35,154 nucleotides of DNA from the IMG/VR virus record IMGVR_UViG_2913152634_000005. One strand, given 5' to 3'. Position numbers and translations under genes: made by a program. Below are positions 28,304-31,934 of the stretch, in pieces (the first letter of the stretch is position 1; the number at the start of each line of letters is the position of its first letter). The DNA comes from a virus. Lineage: Duplodnaviria > Heunggongvirae > Uroviricota > Caudoviricetes. The notes beneath the pieces are model-generated. The model was not told the origin of the DNA and ran no database searches. It saw nothing but the letters and a program-made list of their open reading frames with translations.

Positions 28304-28741
28304 TTATTTTAAGCACTGCGTCCTGATGTATTCCTGCAGGTAGTTAACCTGCGCGGTTATCTTGTCGATTCCACCTCGGAGACGGTAATAATTGAGTTCA
28401 GCATCTGCTGTAAGTCCTGGGCTTTCTCCATCGCCCATGCTGCTGGCTCCGGTCGTTGACTTTGCACAGGTGGCGGAGACTTGCAGGCGCTTACGCCCAG
28501 CAGAAACATCAGCACGGAGACTTTCGATAGTCGCATTAGCATCAGCAAGCTCCTTTGTGTATCTGGCGTCGAGTTCTGCTACATCACGTTGACGCTTCTG
28601 CATGTCAGCGATGATGGATGTGGCTTTGTCGCGCTGGTCTTTGTAGGCGATGGCGTTATCACGGTAATGATTAACAGCCCATGACAGGCAGAGGATGATG
28701 CAAATAACCAGAGCGGAGATAATCGCGGTTACCCTGCTCAT
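28304..28741 (-). CDS. Rz: i-spanin Rz
   Basis: [30 protein letters not shown]... matches lambda Rz; start overlaps the R stop (ATGA). Confidence 0.85.
28357..28548 (-). CDS. Rz1: o-spanin lipoprotein Rz1 (embedded in Rz, +1 frame)
   Basis: 63 aa; signal peptide with lipobox LLGVSAC; proline-rich mature region. Confidence 0.7.
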
Positions 28742-29235
28742 TGCTGCCCCCACAAACAGACTTCACGCTCAATATCACGACGGGTCATCAGCCCTTTCCA
28801 TTGCTTACCGCCAGCGTATGTCCAGCGACGTAGCTGGTCACATGCGCCTTTGATATCACCCTGGTTTATTTTGCGAAGAAGCGTCGATGTTCTGAAATTA
28901 CCAGCGCCCACGTTGTAAACGAACGAGTAAAGAGCGCCGCGCGTTGTTTCCGGTATATCGACTTTGATGTACGGGTTAATTTGTCTGGCGACCGTGGCAA
29001 GGTCTTTATTCAGGAGGGCTTTGCATTCTGCTTCGGTATACGTTTTACCGGGAATGATGTCTTTTCCGGTGTGTCCGTGACATACAGTCCATACGCCAAC
29101 GATATCTTCGTATGGTATGTAGCTGACACCTTCCAGGCCATCGTCACCACTCGGACCAGTGATGAGCACAGACGCTATGGCAACAGCCCCACCACCAATA
29201 GCAGCAGCAACAGCCTTGCGTAATGATGGCGACAT
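28738..29235 (-). CDS. R: SAR endolysin (T4-type lysozyme, P21 R-like)
   Basis: 165 aa; N-terminal signal-anchor-release segment [20 protein letters not shown], then a lysozyme domain. Confidence 0.85.
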
Positions 29236-29450
29236 TATTCACCTCTCGCAGCCTTACGCTTATCTTCTTTAATCTTGAAATAAAGGTTTGTCAGATACGT
29301 CAGCAAGCCAAACACCAGGCTACCCAATACGCCTATTGCCACCCACTGGGATGGGGAGACTTTGTCCAGCAACTGCAGTAGCCAGTATCCCGTCCCCACC
29401 GCTGACGTGGTGTATGACACACCTGTTGTTATTTTTTCCATCTGGTACAT
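29235..29450 (-). CDS. S: pinholin (phage 21 S-like) with upstream antiholin start
   Basis: [68 protein letters not shown] resembles the S21 pinholin. Confidence 0.85.
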
Positions 29451-30315
29451 ACCCCGTCTCCCGTTATCCGGAAGCTGACAACAATAAAAAGCCACCAGTT
29501 AATTCCTGATGGCCCTGATGCATAAACGTCATAATACCTGACTGTTATGATTGACAATAATGATAATGTTTATATAGAAAGGTTCCCGATGTGTGTTACA
29601 TATCATTTCTCCACGGGGAATATCCCCACGCCAGCGCAGACTCTTTTACCCGTTCTCTTCTGCGCTGGCTCTTTTTTATTATGCTGCTGCATTTACCTCT
29701 GGCACCATGCTTTCTATCTCAACACAATACGTGGTACTTCTTGTAACCAATATCATAACGATTAATCGACATAGAATTTCTCCCGTGTACAGGAACAGAG
29801 TTAAAAAGCCGGAACCGGAATCAAATCACAGGATGACCATCTGCCAGTGGCAGGTCATAAAAAAAAGGCCGCGCCATGCGCAGCCAGAACTCACAAGGAA
29901 AATGATAGAAGGAAATAACATTAGTGATGTACGCATGGCGCCTCCCGCTAAGTTCTGCAATGATCAAACAGAACTCGCTACGTGCCCTTAAAACTCGATC
30001 ATTTAGCCCCTCCAAGGAGGATTCACCATGCGGTTGATTTTTTAATAAACAGTAAACAAAAAAGTCAAGAATTATTCATTCTGTTCTTTCATCATCGGCC
30101 ACAGCAATACCACAATGCCGCAGACCAGAGCGCCATCAGTCAGTACCAACATTATCCTGCTGGTGAAATCCATCATCACCATCACTAAAAGCAGGATCAC
30201 AACAGCAAGCAGACACAGTTTATAAAACAATGTTCAGAAAACGCATTCAGCATGCCTAAGGTTCTATTCCTACGAATAGCCAACTTGCAACTTAAAATAT
30301 TATTTATGCAGCCAA

Positions 30316-31074
30316 TTAAATTCTGGTCCTTACAATATCAACCTGAAGATTCTTATCTTGTGCTGATTGATAAATGACAAACCTTTTACTACCTGCATTG
30401 AAAGAAGTAGACAAAACCAGACAATTATCATAACGAGCAAGAACATAATACCAACCATCATTATAATTAATCATTTCATATTCTTTCTTAAACTGCGGTT
30501 TGTAATATCCTGTCAGAAATGAAAAAAGCCAGAAATATGCCACAAAAGCAATCATCACAATCTCAAAAAAATGTTTTTTTATAAATGGCTTATCATAGAA
30601 GCATGATACCGATAAAAATCGCCCATAAGATCTTATCGAAATTGTAACCGCCAGCGCAATCGCTGCTGACAGTAGCAAAAGAGGTACCTGAATCTTCTGT
30701 CTCAATATAGAAAACTCAATAATTGCCGGCACAAACAATAATTCCACAGCAAAATAAAGGCGAAATACATTTAGCTCTTGCATAGAATGTTTTCTTTTCA
30801 CTGCGAAAAAGAATACAACACCAATACCCCAACCGATAAGAAATATAGCAATGACGATAACTGCAAAAAATAAACTTCTGGCAACATCATCAACACCTGC
30901 ACCTACAATCCACCATGGGAAGCCGTAGTAAAAAGAAGTACCCCATCCATAGAAATAAGCACTCCCCCATCCAAGGCATCCCATGTAGGCAATAAAAAGT
31001 GAAGAACTCCTGAGCAGCGCACCATCCTTCATAACCACCCCAATACAAGATGATAACATTGGCTTACAACTCAT
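30316..31074 (-). CDS. polytopic inner-membrane protein of unknown function (late-operon moron between Q and S)
   Basis: 252-aa ORF with about four hydrophobic helices and aromatic-rich N-terminus; AT-rich; start codon uncertain (Met1, Met6 or Met15). Confidence 0.55.
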   Translation of the reverse strand: MSCKPMLSSCIGVVMKDGALLRSSSLFIAYMGCLGWGSAYFYGWGTSFYYGFPWWIVGAGVDDVARSLFFAVIVIAIFLIGWGIGVVFFFAVKRKHSMQELNVFRLYFAVELLFVPAIIEFSILRQKIQVPLLLLSAAIALAVTISIRSYGRFLSVSCFYDKPFIKKHFFEIVMIAFVAYFWLFSFLTGYYKPQFKKEYEMINYNDGWYYVLARYDNCLVLSTSFNAGSKRFVIYQSAQDKNLQVDIVRTRI

Positions 31075-31229
31075 AACAAAAGCAATTCAATGCCGTCAAG
31101 AGGTTACAGGCTAAAAAACTCTATTACATTGCAGTCAGCATGTTTACTACACAAATACAATTCAGAGCATAAAAACTACTCGGCGGCAGGTTATTGAGAC
31201 TCATCAATGACATGTAAAAAACGCCCATT

Positions 31230-31272
31230 ATTGGTGTCAAGTTTCCCCAAAGTTATTCAAAAAGTCAATATT
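31230..31272 (-). promoter_or_regulatory. pR'-like late promoter downstream of Q
   Basis: minus strand TTGACTTTTTGAATAACTTTGGGGAAACTTGACACC resembles the lambda pR' region. Confidence 0.4.
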
Positions 31273-31310
31273 ATGCCGTTAATATGTTGCCATCCGTGGC
31301 AATCATGGCG

Positions 31311-31934
31311 CTAACGTGTGATCGCATTCAAAATGTTGTCTGCGATTGACTCTTCCTTGTGGCATTGCACAACCAGAGCGTCATACAGCGGCTTAACAGT
31401 GCGTGACCAGGTGGGTTGGGTAAGGTTTGGGATTAGCATCGTCACAGCGCGATATGCGGCGCTTGCTGGCATTCTTGAATAACCGACGCCTTTACATCTT
31501 CCGCACTCTTTCTCAGCAACTCTCCCCCACAGCTCTGTTTTGGCTATATCAACCGCACGGCCTGTACCGTGGCAATCTCTGCATCTTGCGCCCGGCGTAG
31601 CGGCACTACGGCAATAATCCGCATAAGCGAATGTTGCGAGCACTTGCAGTACCTTTGCCTTAGTATTTCCTTCAAGCTTTGCCACGCCACGGTATTTCCC
31701 CGATACCTTGTGTGCAAATTGCATCAGATAGTTGATAGCCTTTTGTTTGTCGTTCTGGCTGAGTTCGTGCTTACCACAGAATACAGCCATTCCGAATCCG
31801 GCTTGTGATTGCGCCATCCCCATAGCAGCCATCACATCAGTACCGGAAAGAGAGTCAGAAGCCGTGGCCCGTGGTGAGTCGCTCATCATCGGGCTTTTTG
31901 GCGAATGAAATTTAGCTATGCTTTCGAGTCTCAT
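31311..31934 (-). CDS. Q: late antiterminator Q
   Basis: 207 aa, near-identical to lambda Q. Confidence 0.92.

What the first reader, a model, noticed from the sequence alone, without database searches (positions are those of the whole stretch)
29500..31300. AT-rich moron between Q and the lysis cassette encoding a polytopic membrane protein
This is the late-operon position where lambdoid phages carry lysogenic-conversion genes such as stx. Here it holds a 252-aa multi-pass membrane protein of no recognisable family, downstream of a pR'-like promoter. A possible 36-aa hydrophobic peptide on the same strand (about 30071-30181) follows. Candidate roles include superinfection exclusion, abortive infection or a virulence function.
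Basis: inference. Interest (0 to 1): 0.6.

Follow-up and report, generated by a model that had tools for sequence, protein, structure and literature searches.

The report
Prophage cargo membrane protein, function unknown
An AT-rich cargo block in the late-gene leader of a lambda-like E. coli prophage encodes a conserved five-helix inner-membrane protein of unknown function, a tiny two-helix protein and the published small RNA PasD; identical copies are already on record in phage 434 and in EPEC strain E2348/69, so it is real and expressed in lysogens but not new.

Summary
All late genes are on the minus strand. An AT-rich block (about 29748-31224; 38.7% GC against 48.9% for the window) lies between Q (31311-31934) and an S21-type pinholin (29235-29450). 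It starts just after a lambda-type pR'/qut.

The large ORF is real (dN/dS 0.05-0.20). Its true start is probably 31032, giving 238 aa rather than 252. It belongs to a small uncharacterised family: Pfam PF27470 "TfpB", PHROG 1521, PGAP "STM1630 family".

The "36-aa peptide" is the C-terminal part of a 52-aa DUF3927/"TciB-like" ORF (30072-30230). Downstream lies the published Hfq-dependent sRNA PasD (30031-29859, 173/173 identical to PasD1). Its terminator is the first strong terminator after pR'.

The locus is 99.5% identical to prophage PP4 of EPEC E2348/69. Published RNA-seq there gives the gene about 20-fold more reads than Q or the lysis genes.

A confident AlphaFold model (pLDDT 81) shows five TM helices plus a small C-terminal beta domain. 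It resembles no solved or viral structure. Homologues sit beside toxin or effector genes (eltAB plasmids, Shigella pINV, Salmonella sseJ) and stand alone in Pasteurellaceae chromosomes.

Verdict: a lysogen-expressed conversion gene acting at the periplasmic face of the inner membrane. Its biochemical role is unknown. Modest interest.

The parts
31311..31934 (-). Q antiterminator, lambda type. It forms the left border of the block.
   Evidence: PF03589, E 6e-58. Its 3' end is 93% identical to Q of HK97, HK022 and mEp phages.
31239..31266 (-). pR'-like late promoter with a qut-like Q-binding element. The sequence is TTGACT-N17-GAAACT, followed by an AATAAT pause-like element.
   Evidence: Aligns with the annotated pR'/qut of mEp234. 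The -35 element is identical. The -10 element is TAAATT in mEp234 and GAAACT here. Homology to these phages ends about 10 nt after the promoter, at about 31224.
31033..31103 (-). Conserved 5' leader of the membrane-protein gene. It carries promoter-like hexamers (TTGACG-N18-TATGAG; TTGTTA-N18-TGtTATCAT) and a GGGGTGG Shine-Dalgarno sequence.
   Evidence: The consensus scan lists a site at 31079-31050. Nucleotide homology to the ETEC-plasmid copy extends to 31103 and no further. Function as a promoter is not shown.
30316..31032 (-). Gene for a 238-aa inner-membrane protein of the PF27470 'TfpB' / STM1630 family. The ORF is open up to 31074 (252 aa), and RefSeq aa from 31059. It has five TM helices and a C-terminal beta domain.
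   Evidence: It is 100% identical to the phage 434 protein UMO75332 region and to WP_001302581.1 of E2348/69.
30072..30230 (-). 52-aa ORF with two TM helices and a TTG start, in the DUF3927 / 'TciB-like' family.
   Evidence: Pfam PF13064, E 3.4e-14, 53 bits against a cut-off of 25. PHROG 1470. Annotated in RefSeq and in phage 434. It is degraded in the E. albertii and Escherichia sp. loci L009 and L010.
30040..30068 (-). Promoter-like element for PasD (TTGACT ... TATTAA), immediately after the stop codon of the 52-aa ORF.
   Evidence: Read from the sequence. PasD is roughly 60-fold more abundant than the upstream mRNA in EPEC, so it needs its own promoter or processing. This is an inference.
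29859..30031 (-). PasD, a published Hfq-dependent sRNA (PasD1 of EPEC; its EHEC homologue is EcOnc13; related to STnc100). Its seed is CCUUGUGAGUUCU.
   Evidence: 173/173 identical to NC_011601 1060260-1060432. The Northern probe sequence is present. There is a sub-threshold Rfam STnc100 hit: 37.7 bits, E 7e-6. The fold is a 5' stem, a single-stranded seed and a terminator, z = -2.1.
29859..29885 (-). Strong intrinsic terminator: an 8-bp stem with 7 G-C pairs, followed by U8. It is the first strong terminator downstream of pR'. It ends PasD and probably also the lysogen transcript of the two ORFs.
   Evidence: Terminator scan. No other terminator-like site lies between 31266 and 29885 on this strand. 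The weak hairpin that phage 434 has upstream of the gene is degenerate here.
29719..29772 (-). 18-codon remnant of the 5' end of the nanS-p (SASA) sialate esterase gene. This gene follows PasD in phages 434 and 2B8. It marks the right border of the shared block, at about 29748.
   Evidence: Alignment with phages 434 and 2B8. Annotations.
29575..29680 (+). Second Hfq-dependent RNA, Esr41-like and convergent with PasD. It has a terminator hairpin at 29631-29668 followed by a T-run. The 5' end is approximate.
   Evidence: Weak Rfam Esr41 hit at 29590-29679: 32 bits, E 0.002. RIL-seq fragments assigned to 'E2348C_1013' map to 29637-29678 on the plus strand. BaseMean is 2064 with log2FC -2.9 in the hfq mutant. 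Promoter-like site at 29538-29567 on the plus strand.
29593..29991 (+). 132-aa ORF annotated in RefSeq (WP_012578864.1) on the opposite strand. It is probably not a gene. It overlaps the plus-strand sRNA and is antisense to PasD.
   Evidence: No Pfam, PHROG, NCBIfam or PADLOC hit. The reads assigned to it behave as an sRNA.
29235..29450 (-). S21-type pinholin with a dual start (MYQM...). It forms the right border and begins the lysis cassette.
   Evidence: PF04971, E 2e-32. RefSeq calls it a class II holin.

Best explanation
The block is a self-contained lysogenic-conversion cassette (a moron) inserted about 10 nt downstream of the late promoter pR'.

In the lysogen, transcription starts after Q. 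It starts from the constitutive pR' and/or from a promoter in the gene's own conserved 70-nt leader. It runs through the 238-aa gene and the 52-aa ORF and stops at the PasD terminator, so the cassette is expressed while the lysis genes stay silent. After induction, Q-modified polymerase reads through that terminator into the holin.

The main product is a five-helix inner-membrane protein. Its predicted topology is N-terminus in the cytoplasm and C-terminus in the periplasm. Its most conserved parts are an aromatic/glycine-rich stretch (AYFYGWG..YYGFPWW..DDVARSLF, at the periplasmic end of TM1, loop 1 and TM2) and a roughly 55-residue C-terminal beta domain. Both face the periplasm.

The protein works as a single gene with no obligatory partner. 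It benefits the bacterium (envelope or host-niche fitness) rather than the phage's lytic programme.

Shown: the gene, the purifying selection, the family, the fold class, lysogen transcripts in a 99.5%-identical prophage, and the mosaic borders.
Inferred: the promoter used, the topology, the absence of a partner, and the host-benefit role. The molecular activity is unknown.
For: Real, selected gene:
- dN/dS is 0.20, 0.05 and 0.09 against three alleles.
- Homologues at 45-68% identity keep the full length.

Moron anatomy:
- Foreign composition.
- Absent from phages with the same Q and pR'.
- Present behind a different Q in phage 434.
- It carries a conserved leader of its own and ends at a strong terminator.

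Lysogen expression in E2348/69 PP4, which is 99.5% identical and has the same protein accession. BaseMean values are Q 6.0, this gene 147, holin 5.4 and lysozyme 3.9. In PP2 they are 226 for this gene against 3.5 for the holin.

Structure:
- AlphaFold pLDDT 81, pTM 0.75.
- Helices at 6-36, 47-78, 89-111, 116-136 and 149-181; strands at 184-235.

Topology from K/R counts: N-tail, loop 2 (KRK) and loop 4 (R, R, K, K, K) hold 10-11 positive charges, against 2-3 in loops 1 and 3.

Conservation is highest in TM1 and loop 1: 0.81-0.85 against 0.34-0.44 for loop 3, TM4 and loop 4.

No obligatory partner:
- The DUF3927 ORF accompanies it only in the Escherichia lambdoid copies of the sampled loci, and is decayed in two of them.
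- Copies stand alone among housekeeping genes in Avibacterium and Actinobacillus.

Host-side role:
- An intact copy lies divergent from eltAB on ETEC plasmids.
- 106 Shigella virulence plasmids carry one.
- A copy lies next to sseJ in Salmonella.
- It directly follows Q in Yersinia prophages.
- The Salmonella member STM1630 is induced in macrophages and co-regulated with SPI-2 (PMC2639726; bioRxiv 10.1101/689075).
- The link to STM1630 is supported by synteny and by the PGAP name 'STM1630 family protein'.
- Only 3 of 50,697 phage records hold it (phage 434 and two records of 2B8), against 1196 of 5426 complete E. coli genomes.
Against: - No phenotype is attached to any family member. Deletion of STM1630 gave no intramacrophage defect. 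A hypermotility phenotype from a screen was not reproduced with clean deletions.
- Transcript is not protein, and no proteomic or ribosome-profiling evidence was available.
- The reads cannot say whether pR' or the gene's own leader drives transcription. The -10 element of pR' is weakened here (GAAACT).
- The two E2348/69 copies are nearly identical, so read assignment between them is uncertain.
- Topology rests only on the positive-inside rule.
- Linkage to toxins could be hitch-hiking, if those loci are relics of lambdoid late regions.
- Nothing excludes a phage-defence role.
Confidence: 0.5

Rival explanations
1. Superinfection exclusion or colicin tolerance. The lysogen-made inner-membrane protein, possibly with the 52-aa 'TciB-like' protein, blocks passage of incoming phage DNA or of colicins across the inner membrane. 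It would do so by occupying or altering the periplasmic face of the entry route.
For: - Prophage location, expression in lysogens and inner-membrane residence.
- The conserved surfaces are predicted to face the periplasm.
- The neighbour carries the PHROG label 'TciB-like inhibition of cell division or resistance to colicin'. That label is itself a prediction taken over from phage P1.
Against: - No hit to any of the 5027 PADLOC defence models at E<=1.
- No similarity to viral structures.
- Very rare in sequenced phages: 3 of 50,697 records, namely phage 434 and two records of 2B8.
- Intact copies occur outside prophages: on Shigella and ETEC plasmids and in Pasteurellaceae chromosomes.
- The Salmonella member is regulated with SPI-2 inside macrophages.
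- The TciB-like partner is dispensable.
Confidence: 0.2
2. Abortive infection. The protein is a membrane effector that collapses the membrane potential when a second phage infects, in the manner of RexB.
For: It is a polytopic membrane protein made in lysogens.
Against: - No sensor partner is conserved next to it.
- No PADLOC hit.
- It is tolerated in up to four copies per genome and on virulence plasmids.
- The conserved parts are periplasmic rather than pore-lining. TM4 and its flanking loops are the most variable region.
Confidence: 0.06
3. A late phage function. The protein tunes lysis (an antiholin-like or spanin-related helper) or virion release, and its position just upstream of the holin reflects that role.
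For: It lies in the late transcript directly upstream of the lysis cassette in this prophage.
Against: - In phage 434 an esterase gene separates it from the holin.
- Most lambdoid phages with the same S21-type lysis cassette lack it.
- Plasmid and chromosomal copies have no lysis genes nearby.
- It is transcribed when the lysis genes are silent.
- No holin-family hit.
Confidence: 0.04
4. A transporter or channel for a small solute, that is, a housekeeping-type membrane function carried by chance.
Against: - No profile match in the local Pfam-A copy, NCBIfam or PDB.
- Five helices, with few conserved polar residues inside the membrane.
- The family is tiny: 76 representatives among 1.84 billion proteins.
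Confidence: 0.05

Closest known systems
Pfam PF27470 'TfpB' / PHROG 1521 / PGAP 'STM1630 family protein'
   Same: The window protein is a member. The 100%-identical cluster representative carries PF27470. It matches PHROG 1521 at E 2e-154. Related E. coli copies are named 'STM1630 family' by PGAP. The family shares one architecture: five TM helices, an A-Y-x-Y..G..YG.P motif, and a C-terminal beta domain.
   Different: The protein itself does not differ from the family. The family has no known function. The name TfpB is, from my memory, that of an ORF in the Moraxella pilin-inversion locus; I could not verify that link with these tools.
Salmonella Typhimurium STM1630
   Same: About 46% identity over the full length to the Salmonella copy next to sseJ. 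It is AT-rich, horizontally acquired, and expressed from its own promoter.
   Different: STM1630 is chromosomal, not in a prophage late operon, and has no DUF3927 or PasD neighbours. Its published data are macrophage induction, silencing by a promoter SNP in ST313, and no replication defect. These data may not transfer to the E. coli copy.
stx, LT-II and other cargo genes in the Q-to-S slot of lambdoid phages
   Same: The position is the same: after pR' and before the holin. The mosaic, AT-rich character is the same. In phage 434 it is followed by nanS-p, exactly as stx is in Stx phages.
   Different: The product is an inner-membrane protein, not a secreted toxin. It appears to be expressed without induction, whereas stx2 depends mainly on Q read-through (established knowledge).
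Prophage inner-membrane exclusion proteins (P22 SieA, T4 Imm, HK97 gp15, lambda RexB)
   Same: Small membrane proteins made by a resident phage that act at the envelope. This is the functional analogy behind the main rival.
   Different: No sequence, profile or fold similarity was found: PADLOC, PHROG functional classes, BFVD. The family also lives outside phages.
Phage P1 TciB / DUF3927 (for the 52-aa ORF)
   Same: Pfam DUF3927 match above the cut-off and PHROG 1470 'TciB-like'.
   Different: There is no BLAST-level similarity to P1 itself; tblastn found only phages 434 and 2B8 plus a few partial hits. The Tci name was assigned in P1 by prediction, not experiment (from memory; the P1 genome paper could not be opened).
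PasD / EcOnc13 / STnc100 sRNAs, and StxS as a precedent for regulatory RNAs ending at late-operon terminators
   Same: The window copy is identical to PasD1. Zhu, Shabalina and Storz place pasD next to Q and upstream of the esterase and holin genes.
   Different: PasD targets are only known from RIL-seq and no function is established. Unlike StxS (from memory), PasD seems to have its own promoter rather than starting at pR'.

Membership tests
Pfam PF27470 (TfpB) / STM1630 family | Match to the family profile | tested here: met
   Precomputed PF27470 on the 100%-identical representative P0001 and on all full-length homologues. The name is shown. The model is absent from the local Pfam copy, so hmmscan returned nothing. 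PHROG 1521 matches at E 2e-154.
Pfam PF27470 (TfpB) / STM1630 family | Shared architecture: five TM helices, a conserved TM1-loop1 motif, and a C-terminal beta domain | tested here: met
   Alignments A1 and A3. AlphaFold model at pLDDT 81.
Moron (lysogenic-conversion cassette) | An extra gene between conserved neighbours that is absent from closely related phages | tested here: met
   HK97, HK022 and mEp phages share Q and pR' and then diverge at about 31224. Only phage 434 and two records of 2B8, among 50,697 phage records, hold the gene.
Moron (lysogenic-conversion cassette) | Base composition different from the surrounding phage genes | tested here: met
   36.4% GC and GC3 31%, against 48.9% for the window and 50.8% for Q.
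Moron (lysogenic-conversion cassette) | Own promoter and own terminator | tested here: inconclusive
   The terminator at 29885-29867 is strong. Promoter-like hexamers lie in a leader conserved with the ETEC copy, but no transcription start site was mapped, and pR' lies upstream with no terminator in between.
Moron (lysogenic-conversion cassette) | Expressed from the repressed prophage | tested here: met
   Published RNA-seq of E2348/69 gives baseMean 147 against 6 for Q and 5 for the holin. That locus is 99.5% identical to the window. This is a transcript-level result from another strain.
DUF3927 / TciB-like (52-aa ORF) | Profile match above Pfam's gathering score | tested here: met
   53 bits against a cut-off of 25, E 3.4e-14, covering residues 7-50.
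PasD sRNA | Sequence identity to the experimentally validated PasD1 transcript, including the probe site and the terminator | tested here: met
   173/173 identical. Coordinates and probe come from PMC8550237 Table S6.
Rfam STnc100 (RF02076) | Score at or above the gathering threshold | tested here: not met
   37.7 bits against 47. It is not listed at the gathering threshold. Zhu et al. regard PasD and STnc100 as related families.
Known anti-phage defence or exclusion systems | Match to a model of a known or candidate defence protein | tested here: not met
   No PADLOC hit at E<=1 for any of the four ORFs. No BFVD match at E<=0.001.
Known anti-phage defence or exclusion systems | Reduces plating of a challenge phage | not testable with these tools
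   This needs efficiency-of-plating assays.
Holin or antiholin | Match to a holin family, or constant linkage to an endolysin | tested here: not met
   No holin family hit. Homologues on plasmids and in Pasteurellaceae have no lysis genes nearby.

The most novel reading that the evidence does not exclude
TfpB/STM1630-family proteins may be an unrecognised class of single-gene envelope effectors with a fold unlike any solved structure. They travel with toxin and effector loci (the stx slot of lambdoid phages, eltAB plasmids, Shigella pINV, the Salmonella sseJ-steB locus). They would use a periplasm-facing aromatic pocket plus a small beta domain to gate or modulate an envelope machine. Examples would be blocking entry of phage DNA or colicins, or tuning a pilus- or secretion-type apparatus during host colonisation.
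Probability: 0.2. Interest if true: 0.6.

Novelty: new member of a known kind. Interest (0 to 1): 0.33.

Why it matters
The gene occupies the slot that carries Shiga toxin in related phages. It is present in about a fifth of complete E. coli genomes, including O157:H7, EPEC and ETEC plasmids, and on Shigella virulence plasmids. It is under strong purifying selection and is transcribed in lysogens, yet nobody knows what it does.

A defined function would explain why it is so persistently retained next to toxin and effector genes. That function could be phage exclusion, colicin tolerance or a host-niche envelope role.

The sequence itself is not new. Identical copies are on record in phage 434 and in E2348/69, and the adjacent sRNA is published. 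The value here is a cleaned-up map and a sharpened, testable hypothesis, not a discovery.

Tried and rejected
1. Family searches. The local Pfam-A copy, NCBIfam and PADLOC gave nothing for the large protein. Scanning all 31 members of A3 against Pfam at E<=10 gave only noise.

4. Partner hypothesis. I tested whether the DUF3927 ORF is an obligatory partner. This was rejected: it is absent or decayed outside the close Escherichia copies.

5. The 63-aa 'putative membrane protein' annotated in phage 434 downstream of TciB. Rejected as a gene: it overlaps PasD, and a 1-nt indel breaks its frame in the window.

6. The 132-aa plus-strand ORF annotated in RefSeq. Rejected as a gene: it overlaps two sRNAs and has no family.

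7. CDI-immunity reading, prompted by the Klebsiella locus next to a two-partner secretion pair. Rejected: the gene is on the wrong side and wrong strand, and is separated from the pair by an IS element.

8. Literature.
- 'tciB' leads only to P1-type annotation.
- DUF3927, the accession numbers and PF27470 gave nothing.
- 'TfpB' and 'Moraxella' gave nothing relevant.
- The P1 genome paper and one 2026 preprint could not be opened.

9. The genome-contig scan returned only five loci, so it added little.
Full report
**What is in the sequence**

All late genes in this part of the window are on the minus strand. Read in the direction of transcription, the order is as follows.
- NinG, a Ser/Thr phosphatase, and a lambda-type antiterminator Q (31311-31934; PF03589, E 6e-58).
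- An intergenic stretch.
- A long ORF (30316-31074).
- A short hydrophobic ORF (30072-30230).
- About 600 nt without a convincing protein gene.
- An S21-type pinholin (29235-29450), a SAR endolysin (28738-29235), Rz, and a Rha-family gene.

The stretch from about 31224 to about 29748 is AT-rich: 38.7% GC against 48.9% for the window. The long ORF has 36.4% GC and GC3 of 31%; Q has 50.8% and 49.5%.

**Promoter and borders**

Directly after Q lies TTGACT-N17-GAAACT. It aligns base for base with the annotated pR' and qut site of phage mEp234. That site is described there as lambda pR' with one mismatch and the lambda qut site with two.
- The -35 element is identical.
- The Q-binding element has a few changes.
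- The -10 element is weakened, from TAAATT to GAAACT.
- A -10-like pause element, AATAAT, follows.

Homology to HK97, HK022 and mEp-type phages ends about 10 nt after the promoter, at about 31224.

Phages 434 and 2B8 carry the same insert at 98% identity. In phage 434 it sits behind a different, Q82-type antiterminator, and homology begins at about 31175. On the right, phages 434 and 2B8 continue into the nanS-p (SASA) sialate esterase gene. The window keeps only an 18-codon remnant of that gene (29772-29719), after which it diverges. These are the mosaic borders expected of a moron.

**The large gene**

The ORF is open for 252 codons, but the first two ATGs are unlikely starts. The third, at 31032, is the probable start.
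- It has a GGGGTGG Shine-Dalgarno sequence.
- Nearly all homologues are 237-238 aa.
- Phage 2B8 and the original E2348/69 annotation nt.

The gene is under strong purifying selection. dN/dS is 0.20, 0.05 and 0.09 against alleles that differ by 5, 24 and 31% at synonymous sites.

It is not without a family.
- The 100%-identical database cluster and all homologues carry a precomputed Pfam domain, PF27470. The tool that lists gene contexts names it TfpB. The local Pfam copy predates that model, which is why hmmscan returned nothing.
- It matches PHROG 1521, of unknown function, at E 2e-154.
- PGAP names some E. coli copies 'STM1630 family protein'.

The family is small. A profile search of 1.84 billion representative proteins found 76 at E<=0.001. 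They come from Enterobacteriaceae, Neisseria and Pasteurellaceae, and all are annotated as hypothetical.

**Structure**

An AlphaFold run on close homologues alone was poor (pLDDT 59). Adding the distant members gave a confident model with pLDDT 81 and pTM 0.75.
- Five long helices: 6-36, 47-78, 89-111, 116-136 and 149-181.
- A five-stranded C-terminal domain: 184-235.

Counting Lys and Arg puts 10-11 positive charges in the N-tail, loop 2 (KRK) and loop 4, against 2-3 in loops 1 and 3. By the positive-inside rule the N-terminus is cytoplasmic, and loop 1 and the beta domain are periplasmic. This is an inference.

Conservation is highest in TM1 and loop 1, which carry the motif AYFYGWG..YYGFPWW..DDVARSLF. 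The commonest residue there has a frequency of 0.81-0.85. Conservation is lowest in loop 3, TM4 and loop 4, at 0.34-0.44. So the conserved face of the protein looks outward.

**The small ORF**

It matches Pfam DUF3927 over residues 7-50 (53 bits, cut-off 25) and PHROG 1470, 'TciB-like'. It is annotated in RefSeq and in phage 434. The Tci label goes back to the phage P1 annotation and, to my knowledge, rests on prediction only.

Among the sampled loci, this ORF accompanies the large gene only in the Escherichia lambdoid copies. In two of those loci (E. albertii and Escherichia sp.) it is truncated or frameshifted while the large gene is intact. No counterpart follows the Salmonella, ETEC, Klebsiella or Pasteurellaceae copies; the Yersinia contigs end too soon to tell. 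It is therefore not an obligatory partner.

Rfam gave a sub-threshold, full-length hit to STnc100 at 29856-30061 (37.7 bits, E 7e-6). Following that lead through Zhu, Shabalina and Storz (bioRxiv 10.64898/2026.05.13.724894) and Pearl Mizrahi et al. (PMC8550237) identified the element as PasD. PasD is an abundant Hfq-dependent sRNA of EPEC E2348/69 that was validated by Northern blot.

Prophage PP4 of E2348/69 is 99.5% identical to window 31953-28691. The published PasD1 transcript (NC_011601 1060260-1060432) is 173/173 identical to window 30031-29859 on the minus strand.

PasD has a promoter-like TTGACT...TATTAA immediately after the stop codon of the 52-aa ORF. It has a long 5' stem and a single-stranded seed. 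It ends in an 8-bp, 7-GC terminator followed by U8. That terminator is the first strong one downstream of pR'. The weak hairpin that phage 434 has upstream of the gene is degenerate here.

**Expression**

DESeq2 baseMean values under activating conditions are as follows.
- PP4: Q 6.0, the membrane-protein gene 147, holin 5.4, lysozyme 3.9.
- PP2 (the 434-like arrangement): Q 69, the gene 226, the DUF3927 ORF 37, esterase 102, holin 3.5.

Per kilobase, the gene has about 20 times the reads of Q and 8-27 times those of the lysis genes. Transcription therefore begins after Q and stops before the holin in uninduced cells. The data cannot tell pR' from a promoter in the gene's own leader. A stretch of about 70 nt upstream of the start codon, with promoter-like hexamers, is conserved with the ETEC plasmid copy, which has no pR'. 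The Salmonella member has its own mapped promoter.

**Where else the family lives**

- Yersinia enterocolitica prophages: directly after a different Q.
- ETEC plasmids: divergent from eltAB (heat-labile toxin), near STb and flanked by IS elements. That allele is seen in 1285 blocks of the contig collection.
- Shigella virulence plasmids: 106 records, for example pWR501 135269-135985, isolated between IS remnants.
- A Klebsiella island with an STb-like gene.
- Salmonella: between sseJ and the frmR-frmA genes, which by gene order is STM1630.
- A degraded copy in an iro-carrying island of E. coli.
- Avibacterium and Actinobacillus: stand-alone among housekeeping genes.

Among 5426 complete E. coli genomes, 1196 have a match, 766 have a near-full-length match, and some carry up to four copies. 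Only phage 434 and two records of 2B8 hold it among 50,697 phage records.

For STM1630 the literature reports the following.
- Macrophage induction and co-regulation with SPI-2.
- Silencing by promoter SNPs in ST313.
- No intramacrophage replication defect on deletion.
- A hypermotility phenotype in a screen that was not confirmed with clean deletions.

**How it most likely works**

The evidence supports a lysogenic-conversion cassette. In the lysogen a transcript starts after Q, covers the two ORFs, and ends at the PasD terminator. On induction, Q-modified polymerase reads through that terminator into the lysis genes.

The product is a single-gene inner-membrane protein that presents a conserved aromatic/glycine loop and a small beta domain to the periplasm. 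Four observations make a service to the bacterium more likely than a role in the lytic cycle:
- it persists outside phages;
- it recurs next to toxin and effector genes;
- it is intact on the otherwise decaying Shigella plasmid;
- the Salmonella member shows the expression pattern above.

I put this reading at about 0.5. Superinfection exclusion or colicin tolerance is the main rival, at about 0.2. It fits the location and topology, but it has no support from defence-gene models, from phage distribution or from context. Abortive infection, lysis control and a transporter role are each unlikely, for the reasons given under the rivals. The molecular activity remains unknown, and I found no phenotype for any family member.

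**Comparison and novelty**

- The protein is a member of an existing, uncharacterised family: PF27470, PHROG 1521 and the STM1630 family.
- The small ORF is a DUF3927 member.
- The RNA is PasD.
- The whole block is identical or nearly so to records of phage 434 and E2348/69.
- As a kind of element, it is a classic late-operon moron in the stx slot.

What is new is only the integrated map. The corrected start codon gives 238 aa. The peptide is 52 aa. PasD and its terminator form the 3' end of the cassette. A probably spurious RefSeq ORF lies on the opposite strand. The family's association with virulence loci is also brought together here. Interest is modest (0.33). It would rise if the family proved to be a new class of envelope effector.

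Noticed in passing
window 29575-29680 (+): A second Hfq-dependent RNA, convergent with PasD. There is a weak Rfam Esr41 hit at 29590-29679. It has a terminator hairpin at 29631-29668 followed by a T-run. In E2348/69, reads assigned to the 'CDS' E2348C_1013 (baseMean 2064, log2FC -2.9 in the hfq mutant) and its RIL-seq chimeras map to 29637-29678.
   Followed up: partly
window 29593-29991 (+): The RefSeq 'hypothetical protein' WP_012578864.1 (132 aa) overlaps the plus-strand sRNA and is antisense to PasD. It has no family in any library searched. It is probably a mis-annotation.
   Followed up: partly
window 29719-29772 (-): An 18-codon remnant of the 5' end of the nanS-p (SASA sialate esterase) gene. 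The gene is complete at this position in phages 434 and 2B8. The esterase has been deleted or replaced in this prophage.
   Followed up: partly
window 31130-31160 (-) vs L001 2982-3007: Phage 434 has a small hairpin with a T8 run (annotated as a terminator) between its pR' and the membrane-protein gene. In the window and in phage 2B8 the 3' arm and four T residues are missing. As a result, nothing terminator-like separates pR' from the gene.
   Followed up: partly
window 6464-6586 (-): A full-length isrC Hfq-binding sRNA (Rfam RF01387, 135 bits, E 1e-32) lies elsewhere in the prophage.
   Followed up: no
L016-L019 (ETEC plasmids), 5001-5714: A 59%-identical family member lies divergent from the heat-labile enterotoxin genes eltAB, about 870 bp away, with STb nearby and IS elements around. 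About 70 nt of 5' leader are conserved with the window copy. This may be a relic of a lambdoid late region around LT.
   Followed up: partly
L025 (Shigella flexneri pWR501), 6001-6717: An intact 57%-identical copy sits on the Shigella virulence plasmid, isolated between IS fragments. 106 Shigella plasmid records carry it.
   Followed up: partly
E2348/69 PP2, E2348C_0686 (NC_011601 740203-740290): RIL-seq chimeras (57 reads, weak p = 0.02) link the coding region of the PP2 copy of the gene to the sRNA PasA. This region encodes the conserved AGVDDVARSLF loop. PasA lies further downstream in that prophage. It is a possible case of post-transcriptional control.
   Followed up: no
L009 6805-6977; L010 6843-6920: In the E. 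albertii and Escherichia sp. loci the DUF3927 ORF is frameshifted or truncated. The adjacent large gene stays intact there, with dN/dS 0.05-0.09.
   Followed up: yes
L008 (contig labelled 'MAG: Veillonella sp.'): A 3-kb contig binned as Veillonella carries a 100%-identical copy of the E. coli gene and of the DUF3927 ORF. This is almost certainly a binning error or contamination.
   Followed up: no
window 29439-29450 (-): The pinholin begins MYQM..., the dual-start arrangement of S21-type holin/antiholin pairs. A terminator-like hairpin (29516-29488) lies just upstream, as annotated in phage 434.
   Followed up: no
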